Shown: positions 4,342 to 48,358, counted from the first letter of the whole stretch. The stretch: 56,603 nucleotides of DNA, filler included, from Nitrospiraceae bacterium (GCA_002726235.1; 3 parts of 3 records of this genome joined end to end with filler, not necessarily neighbours in it), one strand, 5' to 3'. Notes: generated from the sequence alone by a model not told the origin. Numbers and translations: made by a program.

Positions 4342-4461
4342 GATCAAGAGCTATATAGCTAGCCTCCCTTTCAAATTATCTTCACCCCCTGCTTACGATC
4401 TCAATCCAAAAATGTGTGATGCGCTAAAATTGTCGAGTATTGTTGTGTTCGACTCAATGTT

Positions 4462-4533
4462 GATTTAGGTCGGAATCAACTTCGGCCCTATTTACAGGCT
4501 CTTCAAAGCATTGTTCAAGAAATGTGGGGTTGG
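4462..4533 (+). repeat. 72-bp exact direct repeat, copy 2
   Basis: Identical to 1-72; ends on the GG of the sigma-54 -24 element. Confidence 0.95.
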
Positions 4534-4546
4534 CACGAAATCTGCT
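4530..4546 (+). promoter_or_regulatory. sigma-54 (-24/-12) promoter of the nitrate reductase operon
   Basis: TTGGCACGAAATCTGCT, GG-N10-GC, one mismatch to YTGGCACGRNNNTTGCW; about 65 nt before the ATG. Confidence 0.8.
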
Positions 4547-4612: not shown

Positions 4613-6757
4613 ATGCGAAGCCTTTTGAAAGGAAACGTCGATCGTCAAGCTCGAAAGGTGAAGGTTCGCCAGAATCCTGTCGACCGTTGGGCATATACCA
4701 CGTGTGGGTATTGCTCGACCGGATGCGGCATTGAAGTGGGAGTGAAAGATGCTCGTGCGGTGTCCGTGCGAGGAACCAATGCCCATCCGGTCAATCAAGG
4801 CAAACTATGCTTGAAAGGCATTTGGGAGTTCGAGGCGATTAACGCACCGAATCGCGGGACACATCCGTTGATGCGCGAGGAACCGACTCAGCCATATCGT
4901 CGGGTCTCCTGGGATGCGGCACTCACGCAAACGGCGACAGAATTTCGTCGCATTATGGACACGTACGGTCCGGACGCGCTTGCGGTCGTCAGCACCGGCC
5001 AGATCTATACCGAGGAATTCTACGCCCTCGGTAAACTTGTGCGGGGGGGACTTGGGACAAACAACTACGACGGAAACACCACCTTATGCATGGCCAGTGC
5101 GGTATCAGGCTACAAGCGATCCTTTGGATCCGATGGCCCCCCAGGATGCTACGACGATTTTGATGAGACGGAGTGCCTGCTCGCATTCGGATCGAATCTT
5201 GTGGAATGTCATCCGGTAATTTACTACCGGCTCAAGATGGCGCTCGAGCGCCGTCGATTTCCTGTTATCGTCATCGATCCACGCGTCACTGTGTTCGCAC
5301 AAAACGCGGATATTCACCTTGCCATCAATCCTGGGACGGACTTGGTATTGCTCAATGCCCTCGCTCACGTGATTTTGGAAGAACGCCTCGCTGATCAGAA
5401 ATACATTGAAACCCATACCAGCGATTTCGATGCATTTGTGGAAACGGNGACGAAATACTCCCCTGAATACGCGGAGCCGATCACTGGAATTCCAGCATCC
5501 ACAACTCGAACAGTTGCCAGGATCTATGGCAACGCAAATGCTGCGATGTCCATTTGGACAATGGGAATCAATCAGTCTGTGCATGGATCAGATGGCGTGG
5601 TCGCTATTAACAATCTCTCGTTGCTTACAGGAAACATCGGAAAACCAGGCGCAACGTCGCTCTCTATCACTGGCCAGTGTAATGCCATGGGCACCCGTGA
5701 ATTTTCGTCATGCTCAGGACTGCCGGGCTATCGCCTGCTCGAAAATCAGGAACACCGGGCGCAAATCGCGCAATATTGGGGTGTGGATGAATCATTCTTT
5801 CCCCTTAAACGAGGCAAAACGATGACCGATATCTTTCCCGCCATTGAGGCAGGAACCATCAAGGGTCTTTGGCTCATCGCGACCAATCCTGCGACATCAA
5901 TGCCGCAAACCCAGCGGATTGCAAAGAGTTTGAGAAACCTTGAGTTTCTTGTCGTCCAAGACGTGTTCGAAAATGTGGATTCAGCAGAGTTTGCCCACGT
6001 GTTTCTCCCCGCTGCGATGTGGGCTGAAAAAACGGGAACATTTACAAATTCTGAGCGCCGAGTGGGATTAGTCAGAAAAGCAGTCGAGCCTCCCGTCGAA
6101 GCGAGAAGCGATTTAGAGATTTTCTGTGCGATGGCAGAAAAACTTGGCGTTGGACACCTTCTCCCGTCAACAGCACCTGAAATGATGTTCGATGAGTTCA
6201 AAACGATCAGTAAAGGACGTCCATGTGACTATTCCGGACTGAGTTACGACGCATTGGAACGAGAAGGTGGTATCNAGTGGCCTGCTCCAACAGGGGAGGG
6301 AAGCCCACGGCTGTATACCGATGGACGCTTTCACACCGCCAATCGAAAAGCGCGCTTCATTGCGTTAGAGTTTCACGATACCAACGAACGCCCTGACGAT
6401 CAGTATCCCTTCTGGTTGAATACTGGTCGAGTCATTGAGCACTGGCACACGAGAACCAAGACGGGACAGATTGGGAACCTGAACAAATTCTCGCCTATCC
6501 CCTACGTGGAAATGAACTCGATTGATGCCAACCGATTGGGGATTAACTCGTTAGATTCGGTACGGGTGATCTCAAGACGTGGCCAAATAACCGTCATCGT
6601 ACAGGTGACAGAATGCGTCGCCCCAAGGATGGTGTTCATTCCATTCCATTTTGCGAAGGGTGCGAATTTCATGACCCTAGGTCTCTTGGATCCATACTCA
6701 CGGCAGCCGGCGTTTAAGCAGTCTGCAGTCAAGATTGAGAAGGTGGTGTCGAGTTGA
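4613..6757 (+). CDS. nasA: assimilatory-type nitrate reductase catalytic subunit (NasA/NarB family Mo-bisPGD enzyme)
   Basis: CGYCSTGC...GKLCLKG 4Fe-4S motif; NYDGNTTLCMASAV Mo-ligand region; GQCNAMG; no Tat signal; neighbours nirB and narK. Confidence 0.85.
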   Translation: MRSLLKGNVDRQARKVKVRQNPVDRWAYTTCGYCSTGCGIEVGVKDARAVSVRGTNAHPVNQGKLCLKGIWEFEAINAPNRGTHPLMREEPTQPYRRVSWDAALTQTATEFRRIMDTYGPDALAVVSTGQIYTEEFYALGKLVRGGLGTNNYDGNTTLCMASAVSGYKRSFGSDGPPGCYDDFDETECLLAFGSNLVECHPVIYYRLKMALERRRFPVIVIDPRVTVFAQNADIHLAINPGTDLVLLNALAHVILEERLADQKYIETHTSDFDAFVETXTKYSPEYAEPITGIPASTTRTVARIYGNANAAMSIWTMGINQSVHGSDGVVAINNLSLLTGNIGKPGATSLSITGQCNAMGTREFSSCSGLPGYRLLENQEHRAQIAQYWGVDESFFPLKRGKTMTDIFPAIEAGTIKGLWLIATNPATSMPQTQRIAKSLRNLEFLVVQDVFENVDSAEFAHVFLPAAMWAEKTGTFTNSERRVGLVRKAVEPPVEARSDLEIFCAMAEKLGVGHLLPSTAPEMMFDEFKTISKGRPCDYSGLSYDALEREGGIXWPAPTGEGSPRLYTDGRFHTANRKARFIALEFHDTNERPDDQYPFWLNTGRVIEHWHTRTKTGQIGNLNKFSPIPYVEMNSIDANRLGINSLDSVRVISRRGQITVIVQVTECVAPRMVFIPFHFAKGANFMTLGLLDPYSRQPAFKQSAVKIEKVVSS

Positions 6758-8721
6758 GTGNTTCGAATATCAAATCNGACAGCTCATTGAGCTCAAGCCG
6801 TTATGATCTCNCTGTTGACATCGAGACGCCCTTGCCACAAAAGGCGGAATATGGAGAAGCTGGGGAAATTGCAAAAGCGCTATGTCAAAACAGCTGTGAT
6901 CCCACGGATGAATTCAAAGCAACCCAGCAGGTCGGATTTATCTTCCGAGCTGATAATTGTATCGGGTGTCACTCGTGCGAGGCGGCCTGTAGTGAAAAGA
7001 ATGGGTTGCCATCGCATATGGCTTGGAGAAAAGTCGGCTATGTGGAAGGCGGCACCTATCCTGACTACACTCGAGTCAACATCTCGATGGCCTGTAACCA
7101 TTGCGATGATCCCGTCTGTCTCAAGGGATGTCCAACCGGTGCCTATGTAAAGTATCAGGATACTGGTGCCGTTATCGTTGATAGTGACATCTGTTTCGGC
7201 TGTCAGTATTGCACGTGGGTGTGTCCGTATGAGGCGCCCGCATTTAACCCTGAAACAGGTTCGGTCACCAAGTGTAATATGTGTGTCGATCGCTTGGACG
7301 CTGGGCTTCAACCGATGTGTGTCGATGCCTGTCTCGGACACGCGCTGGAATTTGGAGCAATAGACAAGTATGAACGGGACAATCCTGCGGCGCTGACGCA
7401 CATTGCTGGGTTTCCAGATCCGTCTATCAGTAAACCGAACGTGCGGTTCGATCAGAGGCGATCACTTCCCACAACTATGAAGCGCGCCGACACTGAGCTC
7501 ATACAGTATCAGTCCCTCACTTCATCGAATGAAAACACCCGAATCAATGAGATCGGTCTCCCGTATCAGTCGAGCGGAAAAACACATTCAGCGAGTACGG
7601 GAGAGAATCACGGAAGCAAAACGAGCAAGCAGGTGCCCTGGTCTTCCTTGCACTCCCACGAAACCTCCCTTGTGGTGTTTACCCTGCTCGCTCAGTTCGT
7701 CGTTGGAGCGTTCCTCTCGCTCTGGAGTCTACCGCTGATAACATCGGGTGCCGGCTTGAAGACCAGCCTGGTCGGTCCAACACAGGCGATCCTTGTCGGC
7801 ATCACAACGTTATTGGCGGTGGGGCTTGGAATTTCAACCTCACACCTTGGAAAACCGTGGAGATGCTATCGGTCATTGAACAACCTGCGGTATTCCTGGG
7901 TGAGTCGCGAGATTCTCGCGATGGGATTATTCTTTGGTAGCTTGACCCTGTTCACAGCACTGACGTTTCTCGGAGTTTCAGGTTCGTGGGCGCAATGGGG
8001 ATTGGGATCTGCCGTAGCGATGTGTGGAATTGCCAGCATCTTTACCATGTCGAAGATCTATATGATCCCGGCAAGACCTTTCTGGAATCACCCACACACG
8101 TGGGTTTCCTTCTATTCATCGGCCTTCGTTCTGGGCCCGTACCTCGTTGCGGCTGTGCTCGGATTGCTGACCGCGATTCCAGTGATATTCCTTGCTGCGT
8201 TCACAGCGGTTGCGTTAACCACGCAGGTGATTCAGATGACTTCCCAGCGTGTCCATCTGCAAGATCTCGCGTCTGAACCGCAGATGAACAACAAGCGGAA
8301 TCGATCGTTTGGTCCATTGTCGACAAACACACAAGCCGCTCTCCATGTGCAAGGCGAAGCTCAGGCATCTTATGATCAACTTCTCGGAAAATTCGAACGG
8401 TTTCAGAAGATGAGAAGTGCACTCTCGCTCGTCACAATCAGCATGAGCGCAATCACCCTTGTGGCAGCGATTGCGACTAGCCTGTTCTGGAGCGGTCCAT
8501 CGGGAGTGATGAGCCTTGTGAATAGCGTGGTCCCGTGGGTGACTCTGTCCCTCTTTGTGACCGTGCTGGCCGGCGAACTCATCGGCCGTGCGTTGTTCTA
8601 CTCCGTTGTCACCCCCACCACCATGCCAGGATCTCTCTTCATCAAAAACCGTGGCTTCGAACAATTGGCCAGGGACACTGGCTTAGCTAACGATCCCATG
8701 GTTGGGGTTTCGCTGCACTGA
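6754..8721 (+). CDS. fused DmsB-like 4x[4Fe-4S] ferredoxin and DmsC/YnfH-like membrane anchor
   Basis: CIGCHSCEAAC, CNHCDDPVCLKGC, CFGCQYCTWVC, KCNMC..CVDAC, then ETSLVVFTLLAQ, SHLGKP, SWVSRE, ELIGRALFY with about 8 TM segments; start overlaps the nasA stop; several single Ns near the 5' end. Confidence 0.85.
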   Translation: MSXSNIKXDSSLSSSRYDLXVDIETPLPQKAEYGEAGEIAKALCQNSCDPTDEFKATQQVGFIFRADNCIGCHSCEAACSEKNGLPSHMAWRKVGYVEGGTYPDYTRVNISMACNHCDDPVCLKGCPTGAYVKYQDTGAVIVDSDICFGCQYCTWVCPYEAPAFNPETGSVTKCNMCVDRLDAGLQPMCVDACLGHALEFGAIDKYERDNPAALTHIAGFPDPSISKPNVRFDQRRSLPTTMKRADTELIQYQSLTSSNENTRINEIGLPYQSSGKTHSASTGENHGSKTSKQVPWSSLHSHETSLVVFTLLAQFVVGAFLSLWSLPLITSGAGLKTSLVGPTQAILVGITTLLAVGLGISTSHLGKPWRCYRSLNNLRYSWVSREILAMGLFFGSLTLFTALTFLGVSGSWAQWGLGSAVAMCGIASIFTMSKIYMIPARPFWNHPHTWVSFYSSAFVLGPYLVAAVLGLLTAIPVIFLAAFTAVALTTQVIQMTSQRVHLQDLASEPQMNNKRNRSFGPLSTNTQAALHVQGEAQASYDQLLGKFERFQKMRSALSLVTISMSAITLVAAIATSLFWSGPSGVMSLVNSVVPWVTLSLFVTVLAGELIGRALFYSVVTPTTMPGSLFIKNRGFEQLARDTGLANDPMVGVSLH

Positions 8722-8772
8722 CTTGTAGCCAGAGACAGATGCCCTGGTGCTAGAAAGCTGGGACAGCTTCGT

Positions 8773-9078
8773 TCATTGCTTGTACAGTAAGCAAGTACCA
8801 TTTCTCATTCGTGGAGAGAGCCTTGTCCGCTCAGGCGCCTCGTCGAGTTGAAGTAAAGACGATTTCTCGTTTCTGCCGAAGACCGCGTAGGCGAGAAGCA
8901 CAAACAAGAACACAAAGGTGGCGGGAATCACCAGTTTGATAAAGGCACCTTCAGTGAAGNAGCCAGCGATGCCCACCACTGACGGAAGTACAATCGTAAT
9001 CCAAGGAGAGATCTTTAGGAGTTTTCGTAGAGGGCCTTCGTGATTTGGTACCGAAGNCCGTATCCGATCGAGATGACC
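8773..9078 (-). pseudogene. possible 3' remnant of a membrane-protein gene
   Basis: Open frame with two hydrophobic stretches (ISPWITIVLPSVVGIAG; LVIPATFVFLFVLLAYAVF), bounded upstream by a stop, no good start. Confidence 0.25.
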
Positions 9079-9361
9079 GGATGTAATTCAATGGCGGTTT
9101 CGGGCCGAATTCCGTGAGTGTTTTGGGGCATGCGAGATCTCTCTGTGGGTTATCCCTCGATCTCTACGGACGAGAGAATGATGATTGGTATACTTGCCGG
9201 CAACCCCACTCAGAATGCAGCGCTCATGCAATATGGAATAGTCCATGTAGCTTCGACATAAGGTCACAGAAATGCATGGAACGCCAGCGGAGTGAGGAGT
9301 GTAGCGTATCGCGATTGCTTCTGCACGATACCGATGGGCATATTGTCAGGTGAGGACTCGT

Positions 9362-12300
9362 TCAACCATGACTGCTGGTGACTGTAGTCAGTTCAGGCTT
9401 GAAGTCACATGCCGTGGCAAGAGTGCATCCTATTTCGGTTGCGAGGAGGCGGTCGAGGACATGACTCGCAGGGAGGTTTAGGTAAACATCCTCGCCCTCC
9501 ACGCGAACCGGAAAGATCTGCACGGCATAGTCTTCGCCACTCAAACATTCTCCAGATTCCAGCGAGAAATTTTTCTTATGTAACGGACAGGCGATCTTTG
9601 GGATGCCATCGAGATCACCGATGATCCCTCGGGACACCACGAACGCCTTTTTGTGTGGACACATCTGCTGGCAGGCATACCATTCGCCTCGACTGGCGAA
9701 ATTGAAGACGGCAATTTGAACATCGCCGTACTTAATGGTTGCGCCACCGTTGACCGGAAAATCACCTACGGTCCCGACCTTGACCCATGAGTGTTCTGAC
9801 TCCGACTCTGTTTCGGCCTCCATTTGACTCTTCAGCATGCTGAATTGCTCAACCGACACCGTTTCTGAAGGCCAATTCGCCGGACGCTGTTGGCCGCGTT
9901 CTGCGATGATTTCAATCACTGGTTCGGTTTCGTTGGTATTGACGAACTGACGGAAGAGTTTCCGTTTTTCCGGATCATTGACAGTTTCGGTCCATTCGCA
10001 TTTATAAGAATCAACCAGAAATTGCATGCGTGTTTCCAACTCCATGCAAATTCCAAGCCTGTCCTCGATGATGACCCCTTTGAGATGGTCTATTCCTCCC
10101 TCGAGCTTCTCGATCCAGACGGACGTCCTGGTTAGCTTGTCGGCAGTCATGATGTAGTACATTAAGAACCGGTCGATATATTTGATCGCGGTCTCTTCGT
10201 CGATATTGGTCGCCAACAAGTCTGCGTGTCGCGGCTTAGCACCGCCGTTGCCGCAGATGTATAAGTTGTAGCCGCTCTCTGTCGCGACCAATCCAAAGTC
10301 TTTCCCTTGGGCTTCGGCACATTCGCGGATACAACCTGATACCGCACCCTTGATCTTGTGCGGTGCGCGAACGCCTTTGTAGCGATTCTCCAGTCGAACG
10401 GCGAAGGTAACGGAATCTTGCACCCCATAGCGACACCAGCTTGTTCCAACGCAACTCTTGATAGTGCGTAGCGCCTTGCCATAGGCGTGGCCGCTTTCGA
10501 ATCCGGCACCGACAAGCTTTTCCCAAATATCAGGAAGATCCTGCACTTGGGCGCCAAATAGGTCAATACGTTGCCCGCCGGTAATTTTGGAGTAGAGGCC
10601 ATATTCTTTTGCTGTTTCTCCTAACGCGATCAGCTTGTCTGGAGTAATTTCGCCTCCCGGAACCCTAGGGACGACCGAATACAAGCCACCGCGTTGCGCA
10701 TTTGCCATAAAACGATCGTTGGTGTCTTGAAGTGTGTGATGTTCGGGCAGCATGATATTGTCATTCCACAAGGCTGCGAGAATCGATGCAATGGTCGGTT
10801 TGCAAATTTCGCATCCGTATCCGGTGCCATACTGCACGATCNCGTCATCAAAAGTTTTCACCTGATTGGCTTTAATCATGGCGAACATCTCCGTGCGGGA
10901 ATAGGGGAAGTGTTCGCACAAGTGATTGGTCACCGCGATCCCCGCCGCCGCCAGTTCTGCGTTAAAGAGATCAGTGAGCAGTGGCATACACCCGCCGCAG
11001 CCAGTTCCAGCCTTCGTCGTCTCTTTGACCTGACCGACAGCGGTGAGTTGCTGTTGGCAAATCGCTGTGCGGATGACGCCCTTGGTGACGTTGTTGCAGG
11101 AGCAAATCTGTGCCGTGTCCGGCATCGCCTCTACTCCACCAAGTGCTGAGGCACCACCCGACTTACCGAGAATGAGTTCATGTGGTTGGCATGGCAATGG
11201 TTCATCGCTTTTACTACAAAGATACAGGCTGCAGTACTCGCTCGCATCGCCGATTAAGATTCCGCCAAGCAGGGCTGTCCCATCAAGGCTGAAGAGAAGT
11301 CTCTTGTAGATCCCGTCAAACGGATCTTCCCACGTGAGTGGCTTGGCTCGTTCCGGTCCTGCTTCGTAGTCTCCAAAGCTCGCGACATCTACGCCCATGA
11401 GTTTTAATTTGGTTGAACAGTCCGCACTGATAAATGACGCTTCACCACCGGCCAAGTTGTTTGCGACCACTTCAGCCATTTCATATCCGGGCGCAACTAG
11501 CCCATAGACCATGCCGTTATGAAGCGCGACCTCACCCATGGCAAAGATCATCGGATCAGAGGTTTCGAGCCGATCGTTCACGACAATTCCACCGTGCGCG
11601 CCGATATCGATGCCACAATCACGCGCGAGGTCATCACGTGGGCGAATGCCTGCGGAGACGATAATCATGTCAACGTTGAGCTGGCTCCCGTCGTTAAAAC
11701 GCAAGCCTTCGACCGCGCCGTTGCCGACAACTTCCTCTGTGGCTCTATTTAAATGGACGGATACTCCGAGATCTTCGATTTTTCGAACGAGAATTCGTGA
11801 GCCAGCATCGTCGATTTGCCTGGGCATCAGGCGTGGCGCGACTTCCACCACATGGGTTTCAAGTTTGAGGTCATAGGCTGCTTTGGCCGCTTCAAGTCCG
11901 AGTAGCCCTCCGCCAATGATTGCCGCCCGTTTGACTTTCGCACCGTAGGCAATGATGTGTTCAAGATCCTCAATGGTGCGATAGACGAAGACTCCTTGTT
12001 TATTGATACCAGGAACAGGAGGCACAAAGGGGTATGATCCGGTCGCAAGGACCACTGCGTCGTAGACGATCTCCACACCTTTATCCGATCGTACCGTGTG
12101 NGTGTGGCGATCAATCCGGTTGGCTCTGTCCCCAACATGCAAATCAATACCGTGTTCGGCATACCACTCGAGCTTTGCCAGCATCAACTGTTCGGCATCG
12201 CGGTGTGCAAAAAACGATGTGAGGCCAACACGATCATATGCGGCCCGCGGTTCCTCGCAGAACGTGACGATGTGATATTGTTTGGCTGAGTCGAACGCGA

Positions 12301-12385
12301 CCAGCTTCTCGCAAAACCGTTGTCCAACCATTCCGTTCCCGATCACGACGACGGTCTTCTGTGCATTTATGGTGTTTGTACTCAA
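9362..12385 (-). CDS. nirB: NAD(P)H-dependent siroheme nitrite reductase, NirB with fused C-terminal NirD Rieske domain
   Basis: VIGNGMVG and IGGGLLGLEAA FAD/NAD motifs, two BFD 2Fe-2S domains, CVGTSWC and GCIREC siroheme/FeS ligands, terminal CPHK...CPLH Rieske-like domain. Confidence 0.95.
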   Translation of the reverse strand: MSTNTINAQKTVVVIGNGMVGQRFCEKLVAFDSAKQYHIVTFCEEPRAAYDRVGLTSFFAHRDAEQLMLAKLEWYAEHGIDLHVGDRANRIDRHXHTVRSDKGVEIVYDAVVLATGSYPFVPPVPGINKQGVFVYRTIEDLEHIIAYGAKVKRAAIIGGGLLGLEAAKAAYDLKLETHVVEVAPRLMPRQIDDAGSRILVRKIEDLGVSVHLNRATEEVVGNGAVEGLRFNDGSQLNVDMIIVSAGIRPRDDLARDCGIDIGAHGGIVVNDRLETSDPMIFAMGEVALHNGMVYGLVAPGYEMAEVVANNLAGGEASFISADCSTKLKLMGVDVASFGDYEAGPERAKPLTWEDPFDGIYKRLLFSLDGTALLGGILIGDASEYCSLYLCSKSDEPLPCQPHELILGKSGGASALGGVEAMPDTAQICSCNNVTKGVIRTAICQQQLTAVGQVKETTKAGTGCGGCMPLLTDLFNAELAAAGIAVTNHLCEHFPYSRTEMFAMIKANQVKTFDDXIVQYGTGYGCEICKPTIASILAALWNDNIMLPEHHTLQDTNDRFMANAQRGGLYSVVPRVPGGEITPDKLIALGETAKEYGLYSKITGGQRIDLFGAQVQDLPDIWEKLVGAGFESGHAYGKALRTIKSCVGTSWCRYGVQDSVTFAVRLENRYKGVRAPHKIKGAVSGCIRECAEAQGKDFGLVATESGYNLYICGNGGAKPRHADLLATNIDEETAIKYIDRFLMYYIMTADKLTRTSVWIEKLEGGIDHLKGVIIEDRLGICMELETRMQFLVDSYKCEWTETVNDPEKRKLFRQFVNTNETEPVIEIIAERGQQRPANWPSETVSVEQFSMLKSQMEAETESESEHSWVKVGTVGDFPVNGGATIKYGDVQIAVFNFASRGEWYACQQMCPHKKAFVVSRGIIGDLDGIPKIACPLHKKNFSLESGECLSGEDYAVQIFPVRVEGEDVYLNLPASHVLDRLLATEIGCTLATACDFKPELTTVTSSHG

Positions 12386-12756: not shown

Positions 12757-12773
12757 CTGGCACAGGACTTGCT
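12757..12773 (+). promoter_or_regulatory. sigma-54 promoter of the porin-narK-kinase operon
   Basis: CTGGCACAGGACTTGCT, near consensus. Confidence 0.82.
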
Positions 12774-12786: not shown

Positions 12787-14223
12787 ATGGTCTTAAGCCG
12801 ACGTAAAAAGGGAACGGGTGCTGGCGCCTCGTCGATTCGAGCGGCCCTTTTTGCCATGGTTCTCCTTCAGAATGCGCCGTTGTTTGCCTTGGACAGTGAA
12901 AACCTTAACATCAGCGCAGAGATTCGCGAGCGGTATGAAGGGCGCGTCAATTCGAGCTTTGGAAACCCTAATGACACTGGAGTGAATCAAAACAATCAAT
13001 CTTTCGTTGGATCCAGAACACGCTTGAACGTCGGCTATGATGTTTCACCCGATATCAACCTCTTTCTCCAACTCCAGGATACCCGGGCGTTTGGCGCCGA
13101 ACCGGGAACCATTAGCAATACTCAAAACCTTGACCTGCACCAAGGATACTTTCAAGTAAACAATATGTTCCTGGATGGGCTTCAGTTACGGGTAGGCCGG
13201 CAAGCCATTGCCTTCGGTAATCACCGCGTGATTGGCGATGTCGAGTGGAGTAATGTCGCCCGGTCGTTTGACGCCGTACGAATGACACTTAATCGATTGG
13301 TGGGTTCTCTCGATCTTATTTGGGCTCGAACCAGGGACAACGATGTCGATCAGATCACGATCAGAGACCCCGTTAGTTTTCCGGGAACCCCAGCGGAACA
13401 GCGAAAAGGAACTGATGACCAAAATCTGTATATCGCCTATGGGACGTTCAAAGGGATACCCACTGTCTCTGTTGAACCCTACTGGATTTTCCTCGTCGAC
13501 AATGGGGTTGGCGGATCTCTGTTAGCCCCTGCGGCTACGAATCAGCAACGCCATACCATCGGTACCAGAGTCGATGGCACCCTCTTTGCCAAACATCTGG
13601 ATTACACCATGGAAGGGGACTACCAATTCGGAAAGATCGCAAGTCAGCGGACGGGTGGCATTGGGGTGAGAGATCTGGACATCAATGCGTCTGCATTTGC
13701 AGCCAAGGCCGGCTACAACTTTTTGGAACTCCCGTGGCTCCCTCGCATCGGGGTGGAATACGACTTTGCGTCCGGTGATGGTGATAACAATACCGACGAT
13801 CAGCGGGGGAACTTCAATACCTTTGAAAATCTCTTTCCCACTAACCACGCGTTGATGGGCGTGATGGACCTTATGGGGTGGCGGAACATGCAGGACCTGA
13901 GTCTCAGTTTCAAGGTGAAGCCAGGGCCGAAAACTGGAATCTCCATGGATTATCACATGTTCCGTTTGGCCAATCGTAAGGACAACTGGTATCGATTCAA
14001 CGGTGAGGTCCAAATCCAATCGTCGGCAGACAATCAGGCGGCATCAATTGGACAAGAGTTAGACATTACCGCGTTTACGACGGTTAAGGAGACCGTCAAA
14101 CTCGGCGCTGGATGGGGCCATTTCTTCACTGGCGAGTTCATTGAGAAGAACAATCTGGCCAATAGCCAATCGTTTACCACCGATCAGGATTGGGTCTACG
14201 TCATGGCCACAGTCGGATTTTAA
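12787..14223 (+). CDS. alginate-export-family outer membrane beta-barrel (putative nitrate/nitrite porin)
   Basis: Signal-peptide-like N terminus; RERYE, LDLHQGY, RVGRQ, RSFDAVR, ASGD, TFENLFPTNH motifs; C-terminal Phe; start uncertain but must lie downstream of the promoter. Confidence 0.8.
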   Translation: MVLSRRKKGTGAGASSIRAALFAMVLLQNAPLFALDSENLNISAEIRERYEGRVNSSFGNPNDTGVNQNNQSFVGSRTRLNVGYDVSPDINLFLQLQDTRAFGAEPGTISNTQNLDLHQGYFQVNNMFLDGLQLRVGRQAIAFGNHRVIGDVEWSNVARSFDAVRMTLNRLVGSLDLIWARTRDNDVDQITIRDPVSFPGTPAEQRKGTDDQNLYIAYGTFKGIPTVSVEPYWIFLVDNGVGGSLLAPAATNQQRHTIGTRVDGTLFAKHLDYTMEGDYQFGKIASQRTGGIGVRDLDINASAFAAKAGYNFLELPWLPRIGVEYDFASGDGDNNTDDQRGNFNTFENLFPTNHALMGVMDLMGWRNMQDLSLSFKVKPGPKTGISMDYHMFRLANRKDNWYRFNGEVQIQSSADNQAASIGQELDITAFTTVKETVKLGAGWGHFFTGEFIEKNNLANSQSFTTDQDWVYVMATVGF

Positions 14224-14239
14224 GGAAAACGGAGGAATA

Positions 14240-15715
14240 ATGGCGGTGCCGACATCCCATTTGAACCTGTTGTCGTTCACAGGAAACATTCGCATTCTTC
14301 ATTTGACCTGGTTTGCGTTCTTTATCACCTTCGTTGTGTGGTTTAGTCATGCGCCATTAATGGCATTGATACAGGAAACATTTCAATTGACTGACCAAGA
14401 AGTGAAGACGTTGCTCATCCTAAACGTTGCTTTAGCGATACCGGCTCGAATCATCATCGGCATGCTGGTGGATAGCTTCGGTCCGCGTCGAACTTATTCG
14501 TTTCTGCTGTTTGTTTCTGGCTTCCTATGCCTGGGATTTGCCTTTGCGAACACCTATGAGCAGCTGGCCTTCATGCGATTTCTGTTGGGTGCCGCCGGTG
14601 CGGGCTTCGTGATCGGGATCCGCATGGTCGGCGAGTGGTTTCCGGCGAGACAAGTGGGATTTGCGGGAGGCCTGTACGGTGGCTGGGGGAATTTCGGCTC
14701 CGCCGCTGCCGCCATGAGTCTCCCGATCATTGCGTTGATGTTTGGAGGAGATGATGGATGGCGTTATGCCATTGCGTCAACCGGCATTCTTGCGCTTATC
14801 TACTCAGCTGTCTATTTTTTCTCCGTCACCGATACGCCTCAGGGGGCAACGTACTTCAAGCCAAAACGAGCAGGCGGCATGGAGGTAACCAGTGTTGGCG
14901 ATTTCATTCTGTACCTTCTTATGAACATCCCGATATACGCCGCCACAGCCTTACTTGCCTGGAAACTCGGTCCATCCAACGTCAATCTCCTAAGCGTAGC
15001 AGTTACGAACATCATTTATCTGGCAGTGGTGACGATTTATATCGTTCAGAGCATCTGGATCTATCAAGTGAATAGACAGGCCCTCAAAGAAGTCGTGCCT
15101 GAGCTTGAGCGCTACAACTTCAAACAAGTGGCTGTCCTGAACATCGCCTATATGGTCACATTCGGCACCGAGGTGGCCATGGTGTCCATGCTTCCATTAT
15201 TCTTCTTAAACACCTTCGGGCTTTCGCTGGTGACGGCCGGTTTGCTTGCCTCAGGATTTGCCCTCATGAATGTCATTGCGCGGCCTGTGGGCGGGCTCAT
15301 CAGTGACAGATTTGGCAGAAAGCACTCTCTCTCCTGGTTGCTTGTGGGGATGGCAGGCGGATTTTTCCTGATGAGCCAGATTACTGGCAGTTGGCCTGTT
15401 CTCTTGGCCTTGATTGTCATGATGACCGCAGGGGCCTTTGAACAAGCGGGAAATGGAGCGGTGTTTGCCATTGTCCCGCTTGTGAAGCGTCGTATGACCG
15501 GCCAAATCGCGGGCATGGCAGGAGCGTATGGCAGTACTGGTGCTGTGTGCCTTCTTACGGTCCTCTCATTCGTCTCCCCGCAGACTTTTTTTCTTGTCAT
15601 CGCGGTATCGACCATTGCTGCACTTGCTGTCGTCCTGCTGTTCCTCGAAGAACCCCAAGGGCATGTGGCCGAAGTGTTGCCAGACGGGACCATACAGCTA
15701 ATTGAAGTCACCTAG
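14240..15715 (+). CDS. narK: NarK/NNP family nitrate/nitrite MFS transporter
   Basis: LHLTWFAFFITF, GLYGGWGNFG, AGNGAVFAIVP, GMAGAYG signatures; GGAGG RBS before ATG 14240. Confidence 0.93.
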   Translation: MAVPTSHLNLLSFTGNIRILHLTWFAFFITFVVWFSHAPLMALIQETFQLTDQEVKTLLILNVALAIPARIIIGMLVDSFGPRRTYSFLLFVSGFLCLGFAFANTYEQLAFMRFLLGAAGAGFVIGIRMVGEWFPARQVGFAGGLYGGWGNFGSAAAAMSLPIIALMFGGDDGWRYAIASTGILALIYSAVYFFSVTDTPQGATYFKPKRAGGMEVTSVGDFILYLLMNIPIYAATALLAWKLGPSNVNLLSVAVTNIIYLAVVTIYIVQSIWIYQVNRQALKEVVPELERYNFKQVAVLNIAYMVTFGTEVAMVSMLPLFFLNTFGLSLVTAGLLASGFALMNVIARPVGGLISDRFGRKHSLSWLLVGMAGGFFLMSQITGSWPVLLALIVMMTAGAFEQAGNGAVFAIVPLVKRRMTGQIAGMAGAYGSTGAVCLLTVLSFVSPQTFFLVIAVSTIAALAVVLLFLEEPQGHVAEVLPDGTIQLIEVT

Positions 15716-15754: not shown

Positions 15755-17464
15755 ATGACAGCAGATCTCATCATCACATCGGCCCACTACAGTGAAGCCG
15801 GGCACAAGCCGGAAAATGAGGATGCGTGTGGAATTTGCTTCGCCGATCCTGAGTTGCGTCGGGCGAAAGGCGTTGCTCTTGTGATTGCAGATGGCATGAG
15901 TGGCAGTGAAGCGGGGATGGAAGCGAGTTATGCCTGCGTAGAGGGATTTCTCAACGATTACTTCAGCACGCCGGAATCATGGTCGGTAAAGTTGTCTGGT
16001 CAAAAGGTTCTCTCCGCGCTCAATCGGTGGCTGTATAGCGAAGGCCATCAGCGATACGGATCGCCACGAGGTATGGTGGCGACGCTGAGTGCGATTGTCG
16101 TGAAGTCCAGATCCGCCCATCTGTTTCATCTCGGTGATACGCGCATCTATCGTGCGCGTCAAGGACAGCTAGAATGCTTGACCCAGGACCATCGCATTCA
16201 GGTGCAATCGGAAACCCACTGCTTGAGCCGAGCAATGGGGATTGATCTTGATCTGAAAATCGACTATCAGTCTATTCCCGTTGAGGAAGATGACCGGTTT
16301 GTTTTGCTGACGGATGGCATTCATGATCACCTTACCGACGATGAAATTGCAAAGATCGTGTTTCAACATACCGATGATTTGGCTACGGCGTGTCAGGCGA
16401 TAGCGATGAAAGCACTTGCACGCGGCAGCCCCGATAACGTGACGAGTCTTATTGCACGCGTTGAACAGCTTCCGGAGCAGGACAAACATGGATTCTACCA
16501 GCAGCTGACCGCATTACCATTCCCGCCGCCGCTTGCACCTGGAATGAATCTCGACGGATATCGCATTATCCGCGAGGTGCATACGAGTAGCCGATCGGAA
16601 TCGTATCTTGCGGTTGATGAGAAGACAAACACGCAAGTTCTTCTGAAAGTCCCTTCCAGCAACTTCGAAGACGATATCACATACATAGATCTGTTTTTGC
16701 ACGAAAGTTGGGTTGGGAAGCGTCTCAATAGTCCCCACGTCGTCAAAATCCTCGATCATGCGCGCCCCAAAACGTTTCTCTACACGATTCTAGAGTATAT
16801 TGAAGGACCCACACTACGGAAATGGATGTCGGATAACCCTAGGCCGGCACTACAGGATGTTCGCAATATTGTCGAGCAGATCGCGATGGGCATTCGTGCG
16901 TTTCAACGGCAAGAAATGATCCACCAGGACATAAAACCAGAAAATATCATGATTGATAAGCTCGGATACGCAAAAATCATCGATTTCGGTTCGACGAAAA
17001 TTGCGGGCATCGAAGAAATTATGATGCCGATCGATCGTCCCCATGTGCTAGGAACGGCAAACTATGTTGCACCGGAATATTGGCAAGGATACGCGGGGAG
17101 TCACCGTTCGGATATTTTCTCGCTAGGGGTTTTAACCTATGAAATGCTGACGGGGAAATTTCCGTATGGACCGAAACCAACGGTCGGAAACATTAACTCA
17201 TTCGCATACACGCCCGGGCATCAATATAATTCAGCCATACCTGTATGGATGGATGCTACGTTAGAAAAAGCTGTGCATCCCAATCCTGCCGATCGCTATG
17301 ATGCTTTATCAGCGTTTATCCATGACCTTGCGCATCCAAACCAGCAATTCCTGAAAGAAAGGCCTCTCGCACTGATCGAACGCAACCCCTTAGGGTTTTG
17401 GCGTTCGACAACAATCATGTTTTTTTTGCTCAATATGATTCTGCTCTACCTCGTATTCAGGTAG
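15755..17464 (+). CDS. bifunctional PP2C phosphatase / Ser-Thr protein kinase with C-terminal TM helix
   Basis: NEDA, IADGMSG, HLGDTR, LLTDG, DNVT (PP2C); HQDIKPEN, DFG, APE (kinase). Confidence 0.9.
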   Translation: MTADLIITSAHYSEAGHKPENEDACGICFADPELRRAKGVALVIADGMSGSEAGMEASYACVEGFLNDYFSTPESWSVKLSGQKVLSALNRWLYSEGHQRYGSPRGMVATLSAIVVKSRSAHLFHLGDTRIYRARQGQLECLTQDHRIQVQSETHCLSRAMGIDLDLKIDYQSIPVEEDDRFVLLTDGIHDHLTDDEIAKIVFQHTDDLATACQAIAMKALARGSPDNVTSLIARVEQLPEQDKHGFYQQLTALPFPPPLAPGMNLDGYRIIREVHTSSRSESYLAVDEKTNTQVLLKVPSSNFEDDITYIDLFLHESWVGKRLNSPHVVKILDHARPKTFLYTILEYIEGPTLRKWMSDNPRPALQDVRNIVEQIAMGIRAFQRQEMIHQDIKPENIMIDKLGYAKIIDFGSTKIAGIEEIMMPIDRPHVLGTANYVAPEYWQGYAGSHRSDIFSLGVLTYEMLTGKFPYGPKPTVGNINSFAYTPGHQYNSAIPVWMDATLEKAVHPNPADRYDALSAFIHDLAHPNQQFLKERPLALIERNPLGFWRSTTIMFFLLNMILLYLVFR

Positions 17465-19151: not shown

Positions 19152-21218
19152 TTGAAATATGCAGTTATATCAATGACATGCGTTGAGCATGCGACCCCCA
19201 TACCTCTCACGCCTTCCATGCTCATCATGACTCGGCATGACTTTGTTGGATTGTACAACCGGCATGCTAGCCGTACTCACCCCACCTTCAACACATGGCG
19301 GGGTCGAGCACAGCCAATTTCCAAGGCGCCCTCAAACGTATACGTGGTCACAGCTGATGACATTATCCAGTCCGGTGCTGTCGATGTGCCAAGTGCGTTA
19401 CGGCGTGTGCCAGGTATTGAGATCATCCAAATGACGGGTGGCCAGTACGACATCAGGGTGCGCGGCAATAACCAAGAATGGGAGACAGGATCCAGCAGAC
19501 TGTTGATCCTCATTGATGGCCGCTCAATTTACGATGATACCAGTGGGCAAGGGGGAATCAATTGGAAGGCTCTTCCAATCACACTCCCCGAAATCAAACA
19601 AATCGAAGTGCTGAAAGGACCCGCGTCGTCCGTGTATGGGTATAACGCCTTCGACGGAGTCATTGACATCATTACAAAGTCACCGGAAGAAATGGAAGGC
19701 TCCACGCTCCAACTTGCCGGAGGTGAATTTGGCACCGTGACAAGTTCGGCCGTACACGCTGGCCACGTAGGCAACCTGGGCTATCGCATCTCGGCAGGCC
19801 ACGATCAAAACTCACAGTGGGACGAGCCGGATGCCCTGGGATTCCGCGCAAACAAGTTCAATGTCCACACAAAATATGACCTCCCCGATTCTGGCATCCT
19901 GACCGCCGAAGGCGGCATGACCGATACGAACCGGTACGATGGACCAGTGCAGGAAGCCATTCACGCATCAGCCACACGAACAGACACCTACGCAAGGCTT
20001 GGCTACGCGAAAAAGGAATTTTATATCCGAGGATTTTGGCGGAGAACAGACGCTACCTCTGACAATGGCATACACCCATCCCTGACATCGGCGCTAACGG
20101 GTAAACCCTTTGTCCAAATCCTAGGATCAGACCGCGCTGAAACATTATCAATTCCAACCAACACCTTTGACCTTGAAACCCAAAATGCCTTTACATTACC
20201 CACATTTGGTCATTTCACCTATGGCGCGAATTATCGCCACATCACAGTTGGCGGCAATCTGCTTGACGAGGAGCACAACAAAGAACATCGCTTTGGCGTC
20301 TATCTCGAGAATGAATGGTAGGCGTTGGAAAAATTGACCATCGTGACTGGCGCCCGCGCCGATTTCCATTCGGAGATTAATCCGACATTCAGTCCCAGGC
20401 TTGCCTTGCTCTATGCCCTGCAAGAAAATCAGACAATTCGCGCGGCTGGATCAGTGGCCTACAGGTCCCCAACACTCACACACAGCAGTGCTCATCAGAT
20501 CAGTGTCAACACCATCCCCACCGGGGCACCACCACCACACCACATCTTTGAACGTGAGGTTCCAATCACAGGATCCCTTAATCTCAAGCCAGAAAAGATC
20601 ATTTCCTACGAGGCCGACTATCAAGGATGGTTTTGGAACCATCGTCTCCGGTTCCGCAGTGATCTCTTTTACAACCAGATTACGAATCAAATTGTAACGA
20701 GAGACAGTGCCAATATCATTGGCATAACATCAAGCTTGGAAACGCAGAATGACCTTGGATCCACCAATATCTATGGTGGCGAAACCGGGATCGAGGTGTT
20801 ACTTGCCCCGTGGCTCACAGGATATACAAACTATACCTATCAGGAATCGTCTGTCACTACCGACGGCCCCTCTGCCCAGCGAGGAATTCCACGCTCAAAA
20901 TTCAATGCAGGGTTACGCGGTGACTGGGAAAGCGGCCTGAGTGGCGAAATCAACCTTCATCACATCGGAGTTGCGCAGTACGGTTCCATCACACGGTTCT
21001 CCGAATTTGCGAGCTTAGGGCTGATCCCTTCGGACGCCGTTCCCAATAGCAGAGTAGACGGCTATACACTGCTGAACCTGCGTGGCGGCTACATGTATGA
21101 TGATGGTACGGAAGTCGCATTCTCTATCTTCAATGCCCTGAACGACAAACACCGGGAACATCCGCTCGGCGAGCTTCTTAGTACCCGTATTATGCTGTGG
21201 CTGACACGGCACTTCTAG
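19152..21218 (+). pseudogene. TonB-dependent receptor with an in-frame amber stop and no signal peptide
   Basis: Plug motifs from about 19311 (QPISKAPSNVYVV, LRRVPG, LILIDGR, IEVLKGPASSVYG); single TAG at 20319-20321 with the same frame continuing to a C-terminal Phe. Confidence 0.85.
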
Positions 21219-47725: not shown

Positions 47726-48320
47726 ATCCCCTCAGCCGTCAGATGTAACGTAAGCGCTGCAGGAGGTCAAGGGGAAAGAGATGTTCAGTGACAAAAGGGC
47801 GGTGGCGCATTTGCCCCACGATCCTCGACCTGACGAGAATGCATCTCAAACGCAGTATAGACGTTTTGAGATGATTAGCTATACAAGTTTTCGTGAGATG
47901 GTGAAAAATCACACAATTTGAATGGATGGCTGATGCTTATGAAGATGGGATCCACGCAATTTTCGACGCGTTGTGGATGCTGGGGAAGCTTTTTCGGAAC
48001 CACAAATGCCTACAGGCGATGGTCATTTGACAGTGATGATGGAAACAGCCTCCCCAGCAAAACCATTTCTAGATGGGACATGGGAGATTTGGGGAAGAAA
48101 GCTGGTCAAGAGGGCTGATGGGGGAGAATATCAGATTGCTTGCCAATTACAAAATAAGCCAAAATCACCCGAACATTGGACCGGGTCTCTGCATGGACAA
48201 TGCGTGCTTCAGCTCATGCTTTAATGTTCCAGAAGCAGTTTTTATTTCAATGTATGCCACTTGATTTAATTTAAAGCAAAAAGCAGTGACAATTATTGAT
48301 TGTTATGTTTAAAGTTTTTA

Positions 48321-48358
48321 TTGACAGCGTGCGTGCATGATGATATAACACGCACGCT
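48321..48358 (+). promoter_or_regulatory. sigma-70 promoter overlapped by a 10-bp inverted repeat
   Basis: TTGACA-N17-TATAAC with extended TG; AGCGTGCGTG-N13-CACGCACGCT at 48326-48358. Confidence 0.75.

What the first reader, a model, noticed from the sequence alone, without database searches (positions are those of the whole stretch)
4613..8721. Assimilatory-type nitrate reductase wired to a quinone-type membrane anchor (NasA plus fused DmsB-DmsC)
Established: NasA/NarB enzymes are soluble and take electrons from ferredoxin/flavodoxin or an NADH diaphorase; DmsBC modules link respiratory Mo enzymes to quinol. Seen: a NasA-like subunit with no Tat signal and no C-terminal BFD domain, translationally coupled to one polypeptide holding four 4Fe-4S motifs and a DmsC anchor, under a sigma-54 promoter. 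Inference: a cytoplasm-facing, quinol-fed nitrate reductase distinct from Nas, Nap and Nar, which would spare NADH and ferredoxin in a chemolithoautotroph. Similar pairs probably exist in other genomes as annotations; I know of no biochemical characterisation. This is the best bacterial candidate for an undescribed system.
Basis: partly seen in the sequence, partly recalled or inferred. Interest (0 to 1): 0.78.

Follow-up and report, generated by a model that had tools for sequence, protein, structure and literature searches.

The report
Membrane-anchored, probably quinol-fed assimilatory nitrate reductase
A nitrate-assimilation enzyme, normally a soluble protein, is here paired with a fused iron-sulfur and membrane-anchor protein that probably feeds it electrons from the respiratory quinone pool; the pairing is common in marine bacteria and we found no study of it.

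Summary
Window 4613-6757 encodes a 714-aa Mo-bisPGD protein with nitrate-reductase active-site residues, no Tat signal and no BFD domain. It overlaps by 4 nt (TTGA) a 655-aa protein (6754-8721) that is collinear with E. coli DmsB plus DmsC. That protein has 16 invariant cluster cysteines, and the DmsC quinol-site residues are conserved.

Charge bias puts the Fe-S domain in the cytoplasm: 14-23 K+R on its side against 0-2 on the far side, in 19 of 19 homologues.

The pair is a conserved module. A NasA-like gene lies directly upstream of the fused gene in 77 of 80 loci, usually beside nirB, a NarK-type transporter and a kinase. The fused protein was found in 55 of 400 sampled Gammaproteobacteria genomes and 16 of 301 Nitrospirota genomes.

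Ten literature searches found no description. Two reviews state or imply that Nas-clade enzymes lack such subunits.

Best reading: a cytoplasm-facing quinol:nitrate oxidoreductase for assimilation, which is a new variant of known kinds. The tree does not resolve the clade against Nas, Nap and FDH. The system is not specific to chemolithoautotrophs.

The parts
4417..4453 (+). Conserved upstream block with an inverted repeat, GTCGA (4432-4436) and TCGAC (4449-4453). Candidate binding site for an enhancer-binding activator.
   Evidence: The block is conserved between the window and L001 in an otherwise diverged intergenic region. Function is inferred only.
4531..4546 (+). Sigma-54-type -24/-12 promoter-like site, TGGCACGAAATCTGCT
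   Evidence: One mismatch to the consensus. Conserved in L001. A looser motif lies within 450 nt upstream of the NasA-like gene in 14 of 60 loci.
4613..6757 (+). NasA-like Mo-bisPGD catalytic subunit, 714 aa. FS0 cysteines are C31/C34/C38/C66. The Mo ligand is C159 followed by M160. No Tat signal and no BFD domain.
6754..8721 (+). Fused DmsB-DmsC protein, 655 aa. It comprises a 56-aa N-terminal extension, a four-cluster Fe-S domain (about aa 57-235, nt 6922-7458), a linker, eight TM helices (aa 304-618, nt 7663-8607) and a conserved 37-aa C-terminal tail.
9362..12385 (-). Fused NirB-NirD NAD(P)H nitrite reductase, 1007 aa, convergent with the pair
   Evidence: Pfam finds Pyr_redox_2, Fer2_BFD, NIR_SIR and Rieske_2. 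A NirB homologue lies in 36 of 48 loci of 15 kb or more.
12787..14223 (+). Alginate_exp-type outer-membrane porin. The likely start is ATG 12787. A sigma-54-like site at 12758-12773 ends only 13 nt before it.
14141..15715 (+). MFS transporter, NarK-like by context; start uncertain
   Evidence: MFS_1 domain. Homologues lie in 24 of 48 loci of 15 kb or more.
15755..17464 (+). Fusion of a PP2C phosphatase and a Ser/Thr kinase, conserved beside the transporter
   Evidence: Found in 22 of 48 loci of 15 kb or more.

Best explanation
The two genes encode a membrane-bound, cytoplasm-facing quinol:nitrate oxidoreductase that performs the first step of nitrate assimilation.

Proposed mechanism:
- Quinol binds the DmsC-type eight-helix domain at a site on the cytoplasmic side, formed by S361, H364, S381 and E386.
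- Electrons pass through the four [4Fe-4S] clusters of the fused DmsB-type domain to the N-terminal cluster of the NasA-like subunit, and then to Mo-bisPGD, where nitrate is reduced to nitrite.
- The fused NirBD encoded next door takes nitrite on to ammonium.
- Quinol oxidation and nitrate reduction both occur on the cytoplasmic side and the anchor has no haem, so the enzyme itself should be electroneutral.
- Drawing electrons from the quinone pool instead of NAD(P)H or ferredoxin lets any quinone-reducing dehydrogenase pay for nitrate assimilation. It also keeps the energy conserved between NADH and quinone.

Shown here: domain content, conserved residues, absence of signals, charge bias, linkage, co-inheritance and context.
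Inferred: that the two proteins bind, that quinol is the donor, that nitrate is the substrate, and the physiological role.
For: Nitrate-reductase identity of the catalytic subunit:
- The best solved relative is D. desulfuricans NapA (486 bits). The Mo-ligand motif TLCMASAVSGY aligns with NapA's LCMASAVGGY, whereas FdhF has C-H.
- Across 64 clade members the consensus is TLCMaSAVSGY, IWTMGINQ, SITGQ and GT-RE, as in the Nap and Nas references. The three FDH references have C/U/Q-H or Q, lack the Arg at the GT-RE position, and carry Arg where the clade and the Nap and most Nas references have Thr (SITGQ).

Partner module:
- The fused protein is collinear with E. coli DmsB (hhalign probability 100, E 3.3e-40) and DmsC (probability 99.3, E 7.6e-21).
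- All 16 cluster Cys are invariant in 19 sequences.
- DmsC Ser62, His65, Ser82, Glu87 and Arg271 align with invariant S361, H364, S381, E386 and R612.
- Replacing His65 blocks quinol oxidation, and Glu87 matters for quinol binding (PMC8076601, passages read).

Orientation:
- No signal peptide is present.
- K+R counts are 14-23 on the Fe-S side against 0-2 on the far side in 19 of 19 homologues. E. coli DmsC shows the opposite, weaker bias.

The pair as a unit:
- A NasA-like gene lies directly upstream on the same strand in 77 of 80 loci.
- The median gap is 12.5 nt, and it is 30 nt or less in 58 of 76 loci.
- Pairwise identity matrices of the two proteins correlate (Mantel r 0.88, 0 of 999 permutations) over 58 loci.
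- In Ketobacter L032 the pair stands alone among unrelated genes.

Assimilatory context:
- The window carries nirBD, a porin, an MFS transporter and a kinase.
- Among loci of 15 kb or more, NirB is present in 36 of 48 and the MFS transporter in 24 of 48.
- A sigma-54-type promoter precedes the pair.
- It is the only Nas-type enzyme in 4 of 5 genomes checked.

Expression hint:
- Contigs of an RNA library that are 99% or more identical cover parts of dmsBC. One of them runs across the nasA/dmsBC junction.
Against:
- No NasA-DmsB-DmsC triple fusion was found (weak evidence).
- All NCBIfam scores are below the curated cut-offs: Fdh-alpha 614 against 666, NasC 519 against 1100, NapA 433 against 904, DmsB 169 against 214.
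- The tree leaves the clade unresolved against FDH, Nap and Nas. The clade+FDH branch has support 19, and the clade+NapA constraint gives p-AU 0.45.
- NirBD next door could in principle supply NADH-derived electrons.
- Methylophaga L046 carries a classical NADH-type Nas in the same cluster, so the module is not always the sole route.
- In L076 the fused gene follows nirA-like and PII genes with no NasA upstream.
- The RNA-library contigs also cover the region after the stop codon, so DNA carry-over is possible.
- No experimental data were found.
Confidence: 0.6

Rival explanations
1. Same enzyme and mechanism, but a dissimilatory or redox-balancing role. It would act as a non-electrogenic quinol:nitrate electron sink under low oxygen, with NirBD detoxifying the nitrite.
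For: - Parahaliea and Pseudoalteromonas also carry NarG or NapA.
- 3 of 17 Nitrospirota carriers have a true NarG, and in two of them it lies on the same contig as the fused gene.
- NirBD also serves fermentative nitrite ammonification in enterobacteria (recalled).
Against: - A sigma-54-type promoter precedes the pair.
- PII is linked to the fused gene in L076.
- The module co-occurs with nitrate-assimilation transporters.
- The enzyme would conserve no energy itself.
- It is the only Nas-type enzyme in 4 of 5 genomes checked.
Confidence: 0.15
2. NasA is fed by a soluble donor, either NirBD/NADH or ferredoxin. The fused protein would then only tether NasA to the membrane, relay electrons from a cytoplasmic donor through its Fe-S domain, or serve another enzyme.
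For: - nirBD lies in the window and in 36 of 48 long loci.
- In Paracoccus a Rieske NirD-like protein passes NADH electrons to NasC (recalled).
- In L076 the fused gene sits beside a nirA-like gene.
Against: - The DmsC quinol-site residues are invariant, which a mere tether would not need.
- The pair occurs without nirB nearby in 12 of 48 long loci, and stands alone in L032.
- NasA lacks the BFD-type domain of NADH-linked enzymes.
Confidence: 0.15
3. The catalytic subunit acts on a substrate other than nitrate, for example formate, chlorate, selenate or sulfite. In that case this is a SoeABC-like or Fqo-like quinone-linked enzyme.
For: - The best NCBIfam score is Fdh-alpha (614 bits), below its cut-off.
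- The tree does not separate the clade from FDH.
- SoeABC gives a precedent for a cytoplasm-facing complex with a DmsC-like anchor (PMC8076601).
Against: - The clade has C-M, not C/U-H.
- It has Thr at the position where the FDH references have Arg.
- The Arg and Met typical of Nap and Nas are present.
- The genes are steadily linked to nirB and a nitrate-transporter-type MFS.
Confidence: 0.07

Closest known systems
Assimilatory nitrate reductases NasA/NasC/NarB (soluble, cytoplasmic Mo-bisPGD enzymes)
   Same: - Same domain order, FS0 cluster and Cys Mo ligand, with no Tat signal.
- Sits in a nitrate-assimilation cluster.
- 36-40% identity to plasmid-borne Nas proteins.
   Different: - Forms its own clade (support 100).
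- Scores below the NasC and haloarchaeal NasA cut-offs.
- Has no BFD domain.
- Its partner is a membrane-anchored four-cluster protein, not ferredoxin or an NAD(P)H reductase.
- Has a conserved 25-residue N-terminus, MLFGRKxKNPIxIxDKxVxEWKYTT.
Monomeric periplasmic nitrate reductase NapA of Desulfovibrio desulfuricans (PDB 2NAP/2JIM)
   Same: - Best solved relative: 486 bits, aligned over residues 21-710.
- The CMASAV and W-x-MGINQ motifs are identical in type.
   Different: - NapA is Tat-exported and periplasmic (recalled).
- This protein has no signal and scores below the NapA cut-off.
E. coli DMSO reductase DmsABC (subunits DmsB and DmsC)
   Same: - The partner is collinear with DmsB plus DmsC.
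- It has the 16 Cys, eight helices and the quinol-site residues Ser62/His65/Ser82/Glu87 and Arg271.
   Different: - B and C are fused into one polypeptide.
- It has an extra conserved C-terminal tail and an N-terminal extension.
- The charge bias is inverted, so it should face the cytoplasm.
- The catalytic partner is Nas/Nap-like, not DmsA-like.
Respiratory nitrate reductase NarGHI
   Same: - It works alike in outline: cytoplasm-facing, takes electrons from quinol and reduces nitrate.
   Different: - Not a member of this family. P0001 gave no NarG match among its top NCBIfam families, and NarH scored 75 bits against a cut-off of 524.
- The anchor is DmsC-type, not the dihaem NarI (NarI's dihaem nature is recalled), so no redox loop or proton-motive force is expected.
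Sulfite:quinone oxidoreductase SoeABC
   Same: - According to PMC8076601 (passages), it is the only NrfD/DmsC-type complex thought to face the cytoplasmic side with an inverted anchor.
- SoeC also has His65 and Glu87.
   Different: - It oxidises sulfite and reduces quinone.
- Its B and C subunits are listed as separate subunits in the review's table of complexes.
- I could fetch no SoeABC sequence, so the relationship is untested.

Membership tests
Assimilatory nitrate reductase (Nas/NarB) | Mo-bisPGD fold with an N-terminal [4Fe-4S] Cys motif | tested here: met
   Pfam finds three domains. The cysteines are C31, C34, C38 and C66.
Assimilatory nitrate reductase (Nas/NarB) | Cys Mo ligand with nitrate-reductase-type neighbours, not the Sec/Cys-His plus Arg of FDH | tested here: met
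   C159-M160, T353, R362 and M317 are present. The consensus holds across 64 clade members.
Assimilatory nitrate reductase (Nas/NarB) | Cytoplasmic location, with no Tat signal | tested here: met
   64 of 64 clade members have no hydrophobic region before FS0.
Assimilatory nitrate reductase (Nas/NarB) | Score above the curated NasC or haloarchaeal NasA cut-off | tested here: not met
   519 against 1100 and 512 against 1000.
Assimilatory nitrate reductase (Nas/NarB) | Soluble enzyme fed by ferredoxin/flavodoxin or an NAD(P)H reductase (BFD-type domain in the NADH class) | tested here: not met
   No BFD domain. The conserved partner is a membrane Fe-S protein. Solubility itself is not testable here.
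Assimilatory nitrate reductase (Nas/NarB) | Groups with Nas sequences in a tree | tested here: inconclusive
   The clade is monophyletic (support 100), but its position against two Nas groups, Nap and FDH is unresolved. No NarB, B. subtilis NasC or D. desulfuricans NapA was in the tree.
Assimilatory nitrate reductase (Nas/NarB) | Clustered with nitrite reductase and nitrate transporter genes | tested here: met
Periplasmic nitrate reductase NapA | Tat signal and a score above the NapA cut-off | tested here: not met
   No signal. 433 against 904.
Formate dehydrogenase alpha (TIGR01591) | Score above the cut-off, and Sec/Cys-His plus the catalytic Arg | tested here: not met
   614 against 666. 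The protein has C-M, and Thr in place of the Arg.
DmsB-type four-cluster protein | Four Cys groups (16 Cys) | tested here: met
   All 16 are invariant in 19 sequences. hhalign probability against E. coli DmsB is 100. It scores below the DmsB equivalog cut-off, 169 against 214.
DmsC/YnfH membrane anchor (PF04976) | Pfam match above the cut-off, eight helices and the quinol-site residues | tested here: met
   90.9 bits against 22.3. hhalign probability is 99.3. S361, H364, S381, E386 and R612 are invariant.
DmsABC-type complex | Separate B and C subunits, Tat export, and peripheral subunits on the periplasmic side | tested here: not met
   The polypeptide is fused, has no signal, and has an inverted K+R bias.
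NarGHI | NarG-type catalytic subunit, NarH, and a dihaem NarI anchor | tested here: not met
   No NarG match for P0001. NarH scores 75 against 524. The anchor is DmsC-type.
SoeABC | Sequence kinship of the B and C parts to SoeB and SoeC | not tested
   No SoeABC sequence could be fetched. The plasmid search gave only DmsC/YnfH. The likeness in orientation is taken from PMC8076601.

The most novel reading that the evidence does not exclude
This would be a third, overlooked class of prokaryotic assimilatory nitrate reductase. It would be membrane-bound and quinol-dependent, wiring nitrate assimilation directly to the respiratory quinone pool. It would be common in marine Gammaproteobacteria, in sulfur- and iron-oxidising Proteobacteria and in some Nitrospirota. 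It would also be only the second known complex, after SoeABC, with an inverted, cytoplasm-facing DmsC-type anchor. If so, the energetic cost of nitrate use in much of the ocean's bacterioplankton is lower than models based on NAD(P)H- or ferredoxin-dependent Nas assume.
Probability: 0.5. Interest if true: 0.78.

Novelty: new variant of a known kind. Interest (0 to 1): 0.68.

Why it matters
Assimilatory nitrate reductases are usually described as soluble enzymes fed by ferredoxin, flavodoxin or NAD(P)H. A family-wide phylogeny states that no member of the Nas/Nap/FDH clade is associated with the canonical four-cluster or membrane-anchor subunits (PMC7331816, passage read). A survey of NrfD/DmsC-type complexes never uses the term 'nitrate reductase' and names no nitrate-reducing complex in the passages read (PMC8076601).

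The module found here contradicts both statements, and it is not rare. It was found in 55 of 400 sampled Gammaproteobacteria genomes and 16 of 301 Nitrospirota genomes.

If the enzyme is quinol-fed, three things follow:
- The energy budget of nitrate assimilation changes.
- Lithotrophs gain a route that avoids reverse electron flow.
- Gene-based surveys that count 'nasA' would be mixing two enzyme classes with different electron sources.

The hypothesis is directly testable in cultured carriers such as Parahaliea mediterranea DSM 21924, Pseudoalteromonas, Colwelliaceae and Methylophaga.

Tried and rejected

Searches that found nothing:
- A search for proteins over 1148 aa found no triple fusion of NasA, DmsB and DmsC (weak evidence).
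- Rfam found only two tRNAs and no leader RNA.
- A terminator scan of 8600-9500 gave one weak site on the minus strand, no more than chance.
- A plasmid search with the TM domain found only ordinary DmsC/YnfH at 26-34% identity and no SoeC.
- Ten literature searches found no paper describing NasA with a DmsB/DmsC partner. Two candidates, PMC4013037 and bioRxiv 10.1101/2020.10.19.345819, were checked by passages and are unrelated.

Phylogeny:
- The careful search did not finish in 287 s.
- The quick tree and one AU test leave the clade's placement open.
- My first reading, that the clade sat 'inside Nas+Nap', came only from rooting on FDH, and I withdrew it.

Readings considered and rejected:
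- The FqoABC complex proposed in PMC8076601 is a different thing. It has FdnGH-like subunits, Asp at the His65 position, and occurs in other phyla.
- Nitrite oxidation to nitrate with quinone reduction is rejected on thermodynamic grounds (inference).

Read laying:
- Parts of dmsBC without RNA-contig cover say nothing either way.

Full report
**What is there**

The window holds two adjacent plus-strand ORFs at the stated coordinates.
- P0001 (4613-6757, 714 aa) has the three Pfam domains of a Mo-bisPGD enzyme and no BFD domain.
- P0002 (6754-8721, 655 aa) has a 4Fe-4S dicluster region and a DmsC anchor domain (90.9 bits against a cut-off of 22.3).
- The TGA stop of the first gene overlaps the TTG start of the second.
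- Five single N bases give five X residues but no frame break.

The neighbours on both strands are nitrate-assimilation genes:
- a fused NirB-NirD nitrite reductase (9362-12385, minus strand);
- an Alginate_exp porin;
- an MFS transporter;
- a fused PP2C phosphatase and Ser/Thr kinase;
- further on, molybdate-transporter genes.

**The catalytic subunit**

NCBIfam ranks Fdh-alpha first (614 bits), then NasC (519), haloarchaeal NasA (512) and NapA (433). All are below their curated cut-offs, so the protein belongs to no curated equivalog.

The best solved relative is the monomeric NapA of D. desulfuricans (486 bits). There the Mo-ligand motif aligns residue for residue (TLCMASAVSGY against LCMASAVGGY), while the next hit, an FdhF, has C-H at this place.

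I aligned 64 members of the clade with 12 named references taken from plasmids.
- The clade consensus is TLCMaSAVSGY, IWTMGINQ, SITGQ and GT-RE.
- The Nap references and some Nas references share these residues.
- The three FDH references have C/U/Q followed by H or Q. They carry Arg where the clade and the Nap and most Nas references have Thr, and they lack the Arg at the GT-RE position.
- The catalytic roles of the FDH His and Arg are recalled from the FdhH literature and were not checked here.

The tree does not settle placement.
- A quick maximum-likelihood tree (33 rows) shows the clade as monophyletic (support 100).
- Read unrooted, its place relative to FDH, Nap and two Nas groups is unresolved. 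The clade+FDH branch has support 19.
- Constraining clade+NapA costs 0.85 log-likelihood units (p-AU 0.45).
- A careful search did not finish.
- I could not fetch NarB, B. subtilis NasC or D. desulfuricans NapA for the tree.

The nitrate-reductase call therefore rests on the active-site signature, the PDB ranking, the identity ranking against plasmid proteins (Nas 36-40%, FdhF 30-35%, NapA 28-31%) and the gene context. It does not rest on the tree.

**No export signal**

In all 64 clade members the first cluster cysteine follows a short conserved basic N-terminus with no hydrophobic stretch. In Proteobacteria this N-terminus reads MLFGRKxKNPIxIxDKxVxEWKYTT. The two NapA references show RR plus a hydrophobic region.

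**The partner protein**

Profile comparison shows it is collinear with E. coli DmsB (probability 100, E 3.3e-40, 39% identity) and DmsC (probability 99.3, E 7.6e-21, DmsC residues 6-281 of 287).

All 16 cysteines of four clusters are invariant in 19 homologues.

DmsC residues Ser62, His65, Ser82, Glu87 and Arg271 align with S361, H364, S381, E386 and R612, which are all invariant. A review of NrfD-like subunits (PMC8076601; passages read) reports three things about these positions:
- it lists these residues as the DmsC quinol site;
- replacing His65 blocks quinol oxidation;
- Glu87 is important for quinol binding.

Relative to DmsC the family adds a conserved 37-residue C-terminal tail (PTTMPG...GLA...VGV..H). 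In Proteobacteria it also adds an N-terminal extension that brings the protein to 612-741 aa in most loci.

**Orientation**

With eight helices placed by hydropathy, the loops on the Fe-S-domain side carry 14-23 Lys+Arg and the opposite loops 0-2, in 19 of 19 homologues. E. coli DmsC, aligned to the same frame, has a weak bias the other way.

Together with the absence of signals, this places the Fe-S domain, the quinol site and NasA on the cytoplasmic side. The same review says that SoeABC is the only complex of this kind thought to be oriented so, with an inverted SoeC.

**The pair is a conserved unit**

I examined the best 80 loci.
- A NasA-like gene (53-89% identical) lies directly upstream on the same strand in 77 of 80. 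The count is 76 if at least 100 aligned residues are required.
- Of the three loci without it, two have no room upstream (L008, L037).
- The third (L076) has a nirA-like gene and PII upstream instead.
- The gap between the NasA stop and the earliest possible start of the fused gene has a median of 12.5 nt. It is 30 nt or less in 58 of 76 loci, and exceeds 500 nt in two.
- The pairwise identity matrices of the two proteins correlate over 58 loci (Mantel r 0.88, 0 of 999 permutations reach it). Shared organismal descent contributes to this.
- In loci of at least 15 kb, NirB is present in 36 of 48, the MFS transporter in 24 of 48 and the kinase in 22 of 48.
- In Ketobacter (L032) the pair stands alone among unrelated genes.
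- In Methylophaga (L046) it sits beside a classical 408-aa flavoprotein reductase and an 880-aa Nas.

**Distribution**
- The full-length fused protein was found in 55 of 400 sampled genomes of the class of Parahaliea. Five more hits were short and DmsB-only.
- It was found in 16 of 301 sampled Nitrospirota genomes.
- In 1.84 billion representative proteins, 1077 score E 1e-30 or better. Many 480-620-aa proteins hit in two stretches at lower scores, which suggests further fused Fe-S/DmsC families.
- Carriers include cultured strains: Parahaliea mediterranea DSM 21924, Pseudoalteromonas sp. NBT06-2, Colwelliaceae BS250, an Alteromonadaceae strain and Methylophaga.
- Carriers also include MAGs labelled Sulfuricaulis, Thiotrichaceae, Gallionellaceae, Ectothiorhodospiraceae and Leptospirillia. 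That these groups are sulfur and iron oxidisers is recalled.
- Database names are generic. They include 'DmsC/YnfH family anchor subunit', 'DMSO reductase iron-sulfur subunit' and once 'aspartate carbamoyltransferase'.

**Other Mo enzymes in carriers**

Among five carrier genomes, four have no other Nas-type enzyme:
- Parahaliea also has NarG.
- Pseudoalteromonas also has NapA and TorA.
- The two Nitrospirota MAGs have only NuoG-like or QrcB-like proteins.

Of 17 Nitrospirota carriers, 12 gave no NarG-family match at E 1e-20, 3 have a true NarG and 2 gave weak matches. The MAGs may be incomplete. Still, this does not support the idea that the hosts are typical nitrite oxidisers. For the window's own organism I cannot tell, because no genome is held.

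**Regulation and expression**
- The sigma-54-type site at 4531-4546 has one mismatch to the consensus. Two such sites occur in the window against 0.59 expected, and 16 of 100 shuffles reach two.
- The site and an upstream block with an inverted repeat are conserved in L001 within a diverged spacer.
- A looser motif occurs upstream of the NasA-like gene in 14 of 60 loci. In many Proteobacteria nasA follows nirBD.
- The second site (12758-12773) ends 13 nt before the likely porin start, which is oddly close.
- The stretch occurs in marine, seawater and hydrothermal-vent metagenomes: 16 runs hold at least half of its sampled words, and the holders come from 14 studies.
- In two RNA libraries of one sample, eight contigs that are 99% or more identical lie on dmsBC. 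One of them extends about 98 nt upstream, across the gene junction.
- Another contig covers DNA after the stop codon, so DNA carry-over cannot be excluded.

**Mechanism proposed**

The proposed route is quinol, then the DmsC-type site on the cytoplasmic face, then four [4Fe-4S] clusters, then FS0 of NasA, then Mo-bisPGD, and finally nitrate to nitrite. NirBD then takes nitrite to ammonium.

Both half-reactions lie on one side and the anchor has no haem, so the enzyme should be electroneutral. The gain would be that electrons enter at the quinone level. Energy conserved between NADH and quinone is kept, and lithotrophs need no reverse electron flow. All of this is inference from established properties of DmsABC, NarGHI and Nas.

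**Comparison and novelty**

The system works like NarGHI in outline but is not a member of that family. Its parts belong to the Nas/Nap side of the family and to the DmsB/DmsC families, but in a new combination, fused, and inverted.
- PMC7331816 states that no member of the Nas/AioA/Nap/FDH clade is associated with the canonical four-cluster or anchor subunits (passage read).
- PMC8076601 never uses the term 'nitrate reductase' (0 occurrences). Its abstract, figure legend and the table rows I saw name complex types with NrfD-like subunits, and none reduces nitrate.
- Ten full-text searches found no description.
- The library lacks most subscription journals, and I saw no supplements, so an earlier mention elsewhere cannot be excluded.

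I rate it a new variant of a known kind.

**Limits**

Binding, donor, substrate and role are all inferred.

Noticed in passing
window 48000-56603: G+C falls from about 51% to 36-40%. After an N run at 49185-49284, a 1427-aa ORF (52296-56579) has integrase core, retroviral SH3-like and RVT_2 domains. That integrase-before-RT order is the order of Ty1/copia-type retrotransposons (recalled). This end of the window looks like eukaryotic DNA joined to a bacterial contig, through a scaffolding or binning chimera.
   Followed up: partly
window 19152-21218: A TonB-dependent receptor is split into Plug (19152-20321) and barrel (20325-21218) ORFs in the same frame by one in-frame TAG at 20319-20321. This is a nonsense mutation, a sequencing error or a read-through.
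   Followed up: partly
window 15755-17464 and related loci: A fused PP2C phosphatase and Ser/Thr kinase gene sits beside the NarK-type transporter here and in 22 of 48 long loci. It is a conserved but, to my knowledge, unexplained partner of bacterial nitrate uptake genes.
   Followed up: no
L046 1233-17374 (Methylophaga sp.): One cluster holds nirB, nirD, a PhzF-like gene, the NasA-like/DmsBC pair, a 408-aa flavoprotein reductase, a classical 880-aa Nas, a porin and an MFS transporter. That is two nitrate reductases with different predicted donors side by side.
   Followed up: partly
L076 3-4416 (Nitrospirota MAG): The fused DmsBC gene follows a ferredoxin-type nirA-like gene and a PII gene, with no NasA-like gene upstream. 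A 169-aa ORF with no Pfam match follows it. The contig is only 4.4 kb.
   Followed up: partly
window 12758-12773: A second sigma-54-type site (TGGCACAGGACTTGCT) ends only 13 nt before the likely ATG (12787) of the porin gene. That would leave almost no leader.
   Followed up: partly
window 4417-4453: An upstream block with the inverted repeat GTCGA...TCGAC lies about 80-115 nt before the -24 element and is conserved in L001. It is a candidate activator site of unknown specificity and does not match the NtrC consensus I recall.
   Followed up: no
one search hits, for example P0140-P0149: Many proteins of 480-620 aa match the profile in two stretches at 240-340 bits. These look like other families of fused Fe-S plus DmsC-type proteins. 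Their catalytic partners were not examined.
   Followed up: no
L032 3766-5064 (Ketobacter sp.): A gene with an RVT_1 reverse-transcriptase domain, possibly of a group II intron, lies just upstream of the isolated NasA-like/DmsBC pair, on the opposite strand. This hints that the pair moves as a unit.
   Followed up: no
P0008: One database source names a 590-aa fused DmsB-DmsC homologue 'aspartate carbamoyltransferase', which is an evident mis-annotation.
   Followed up: no
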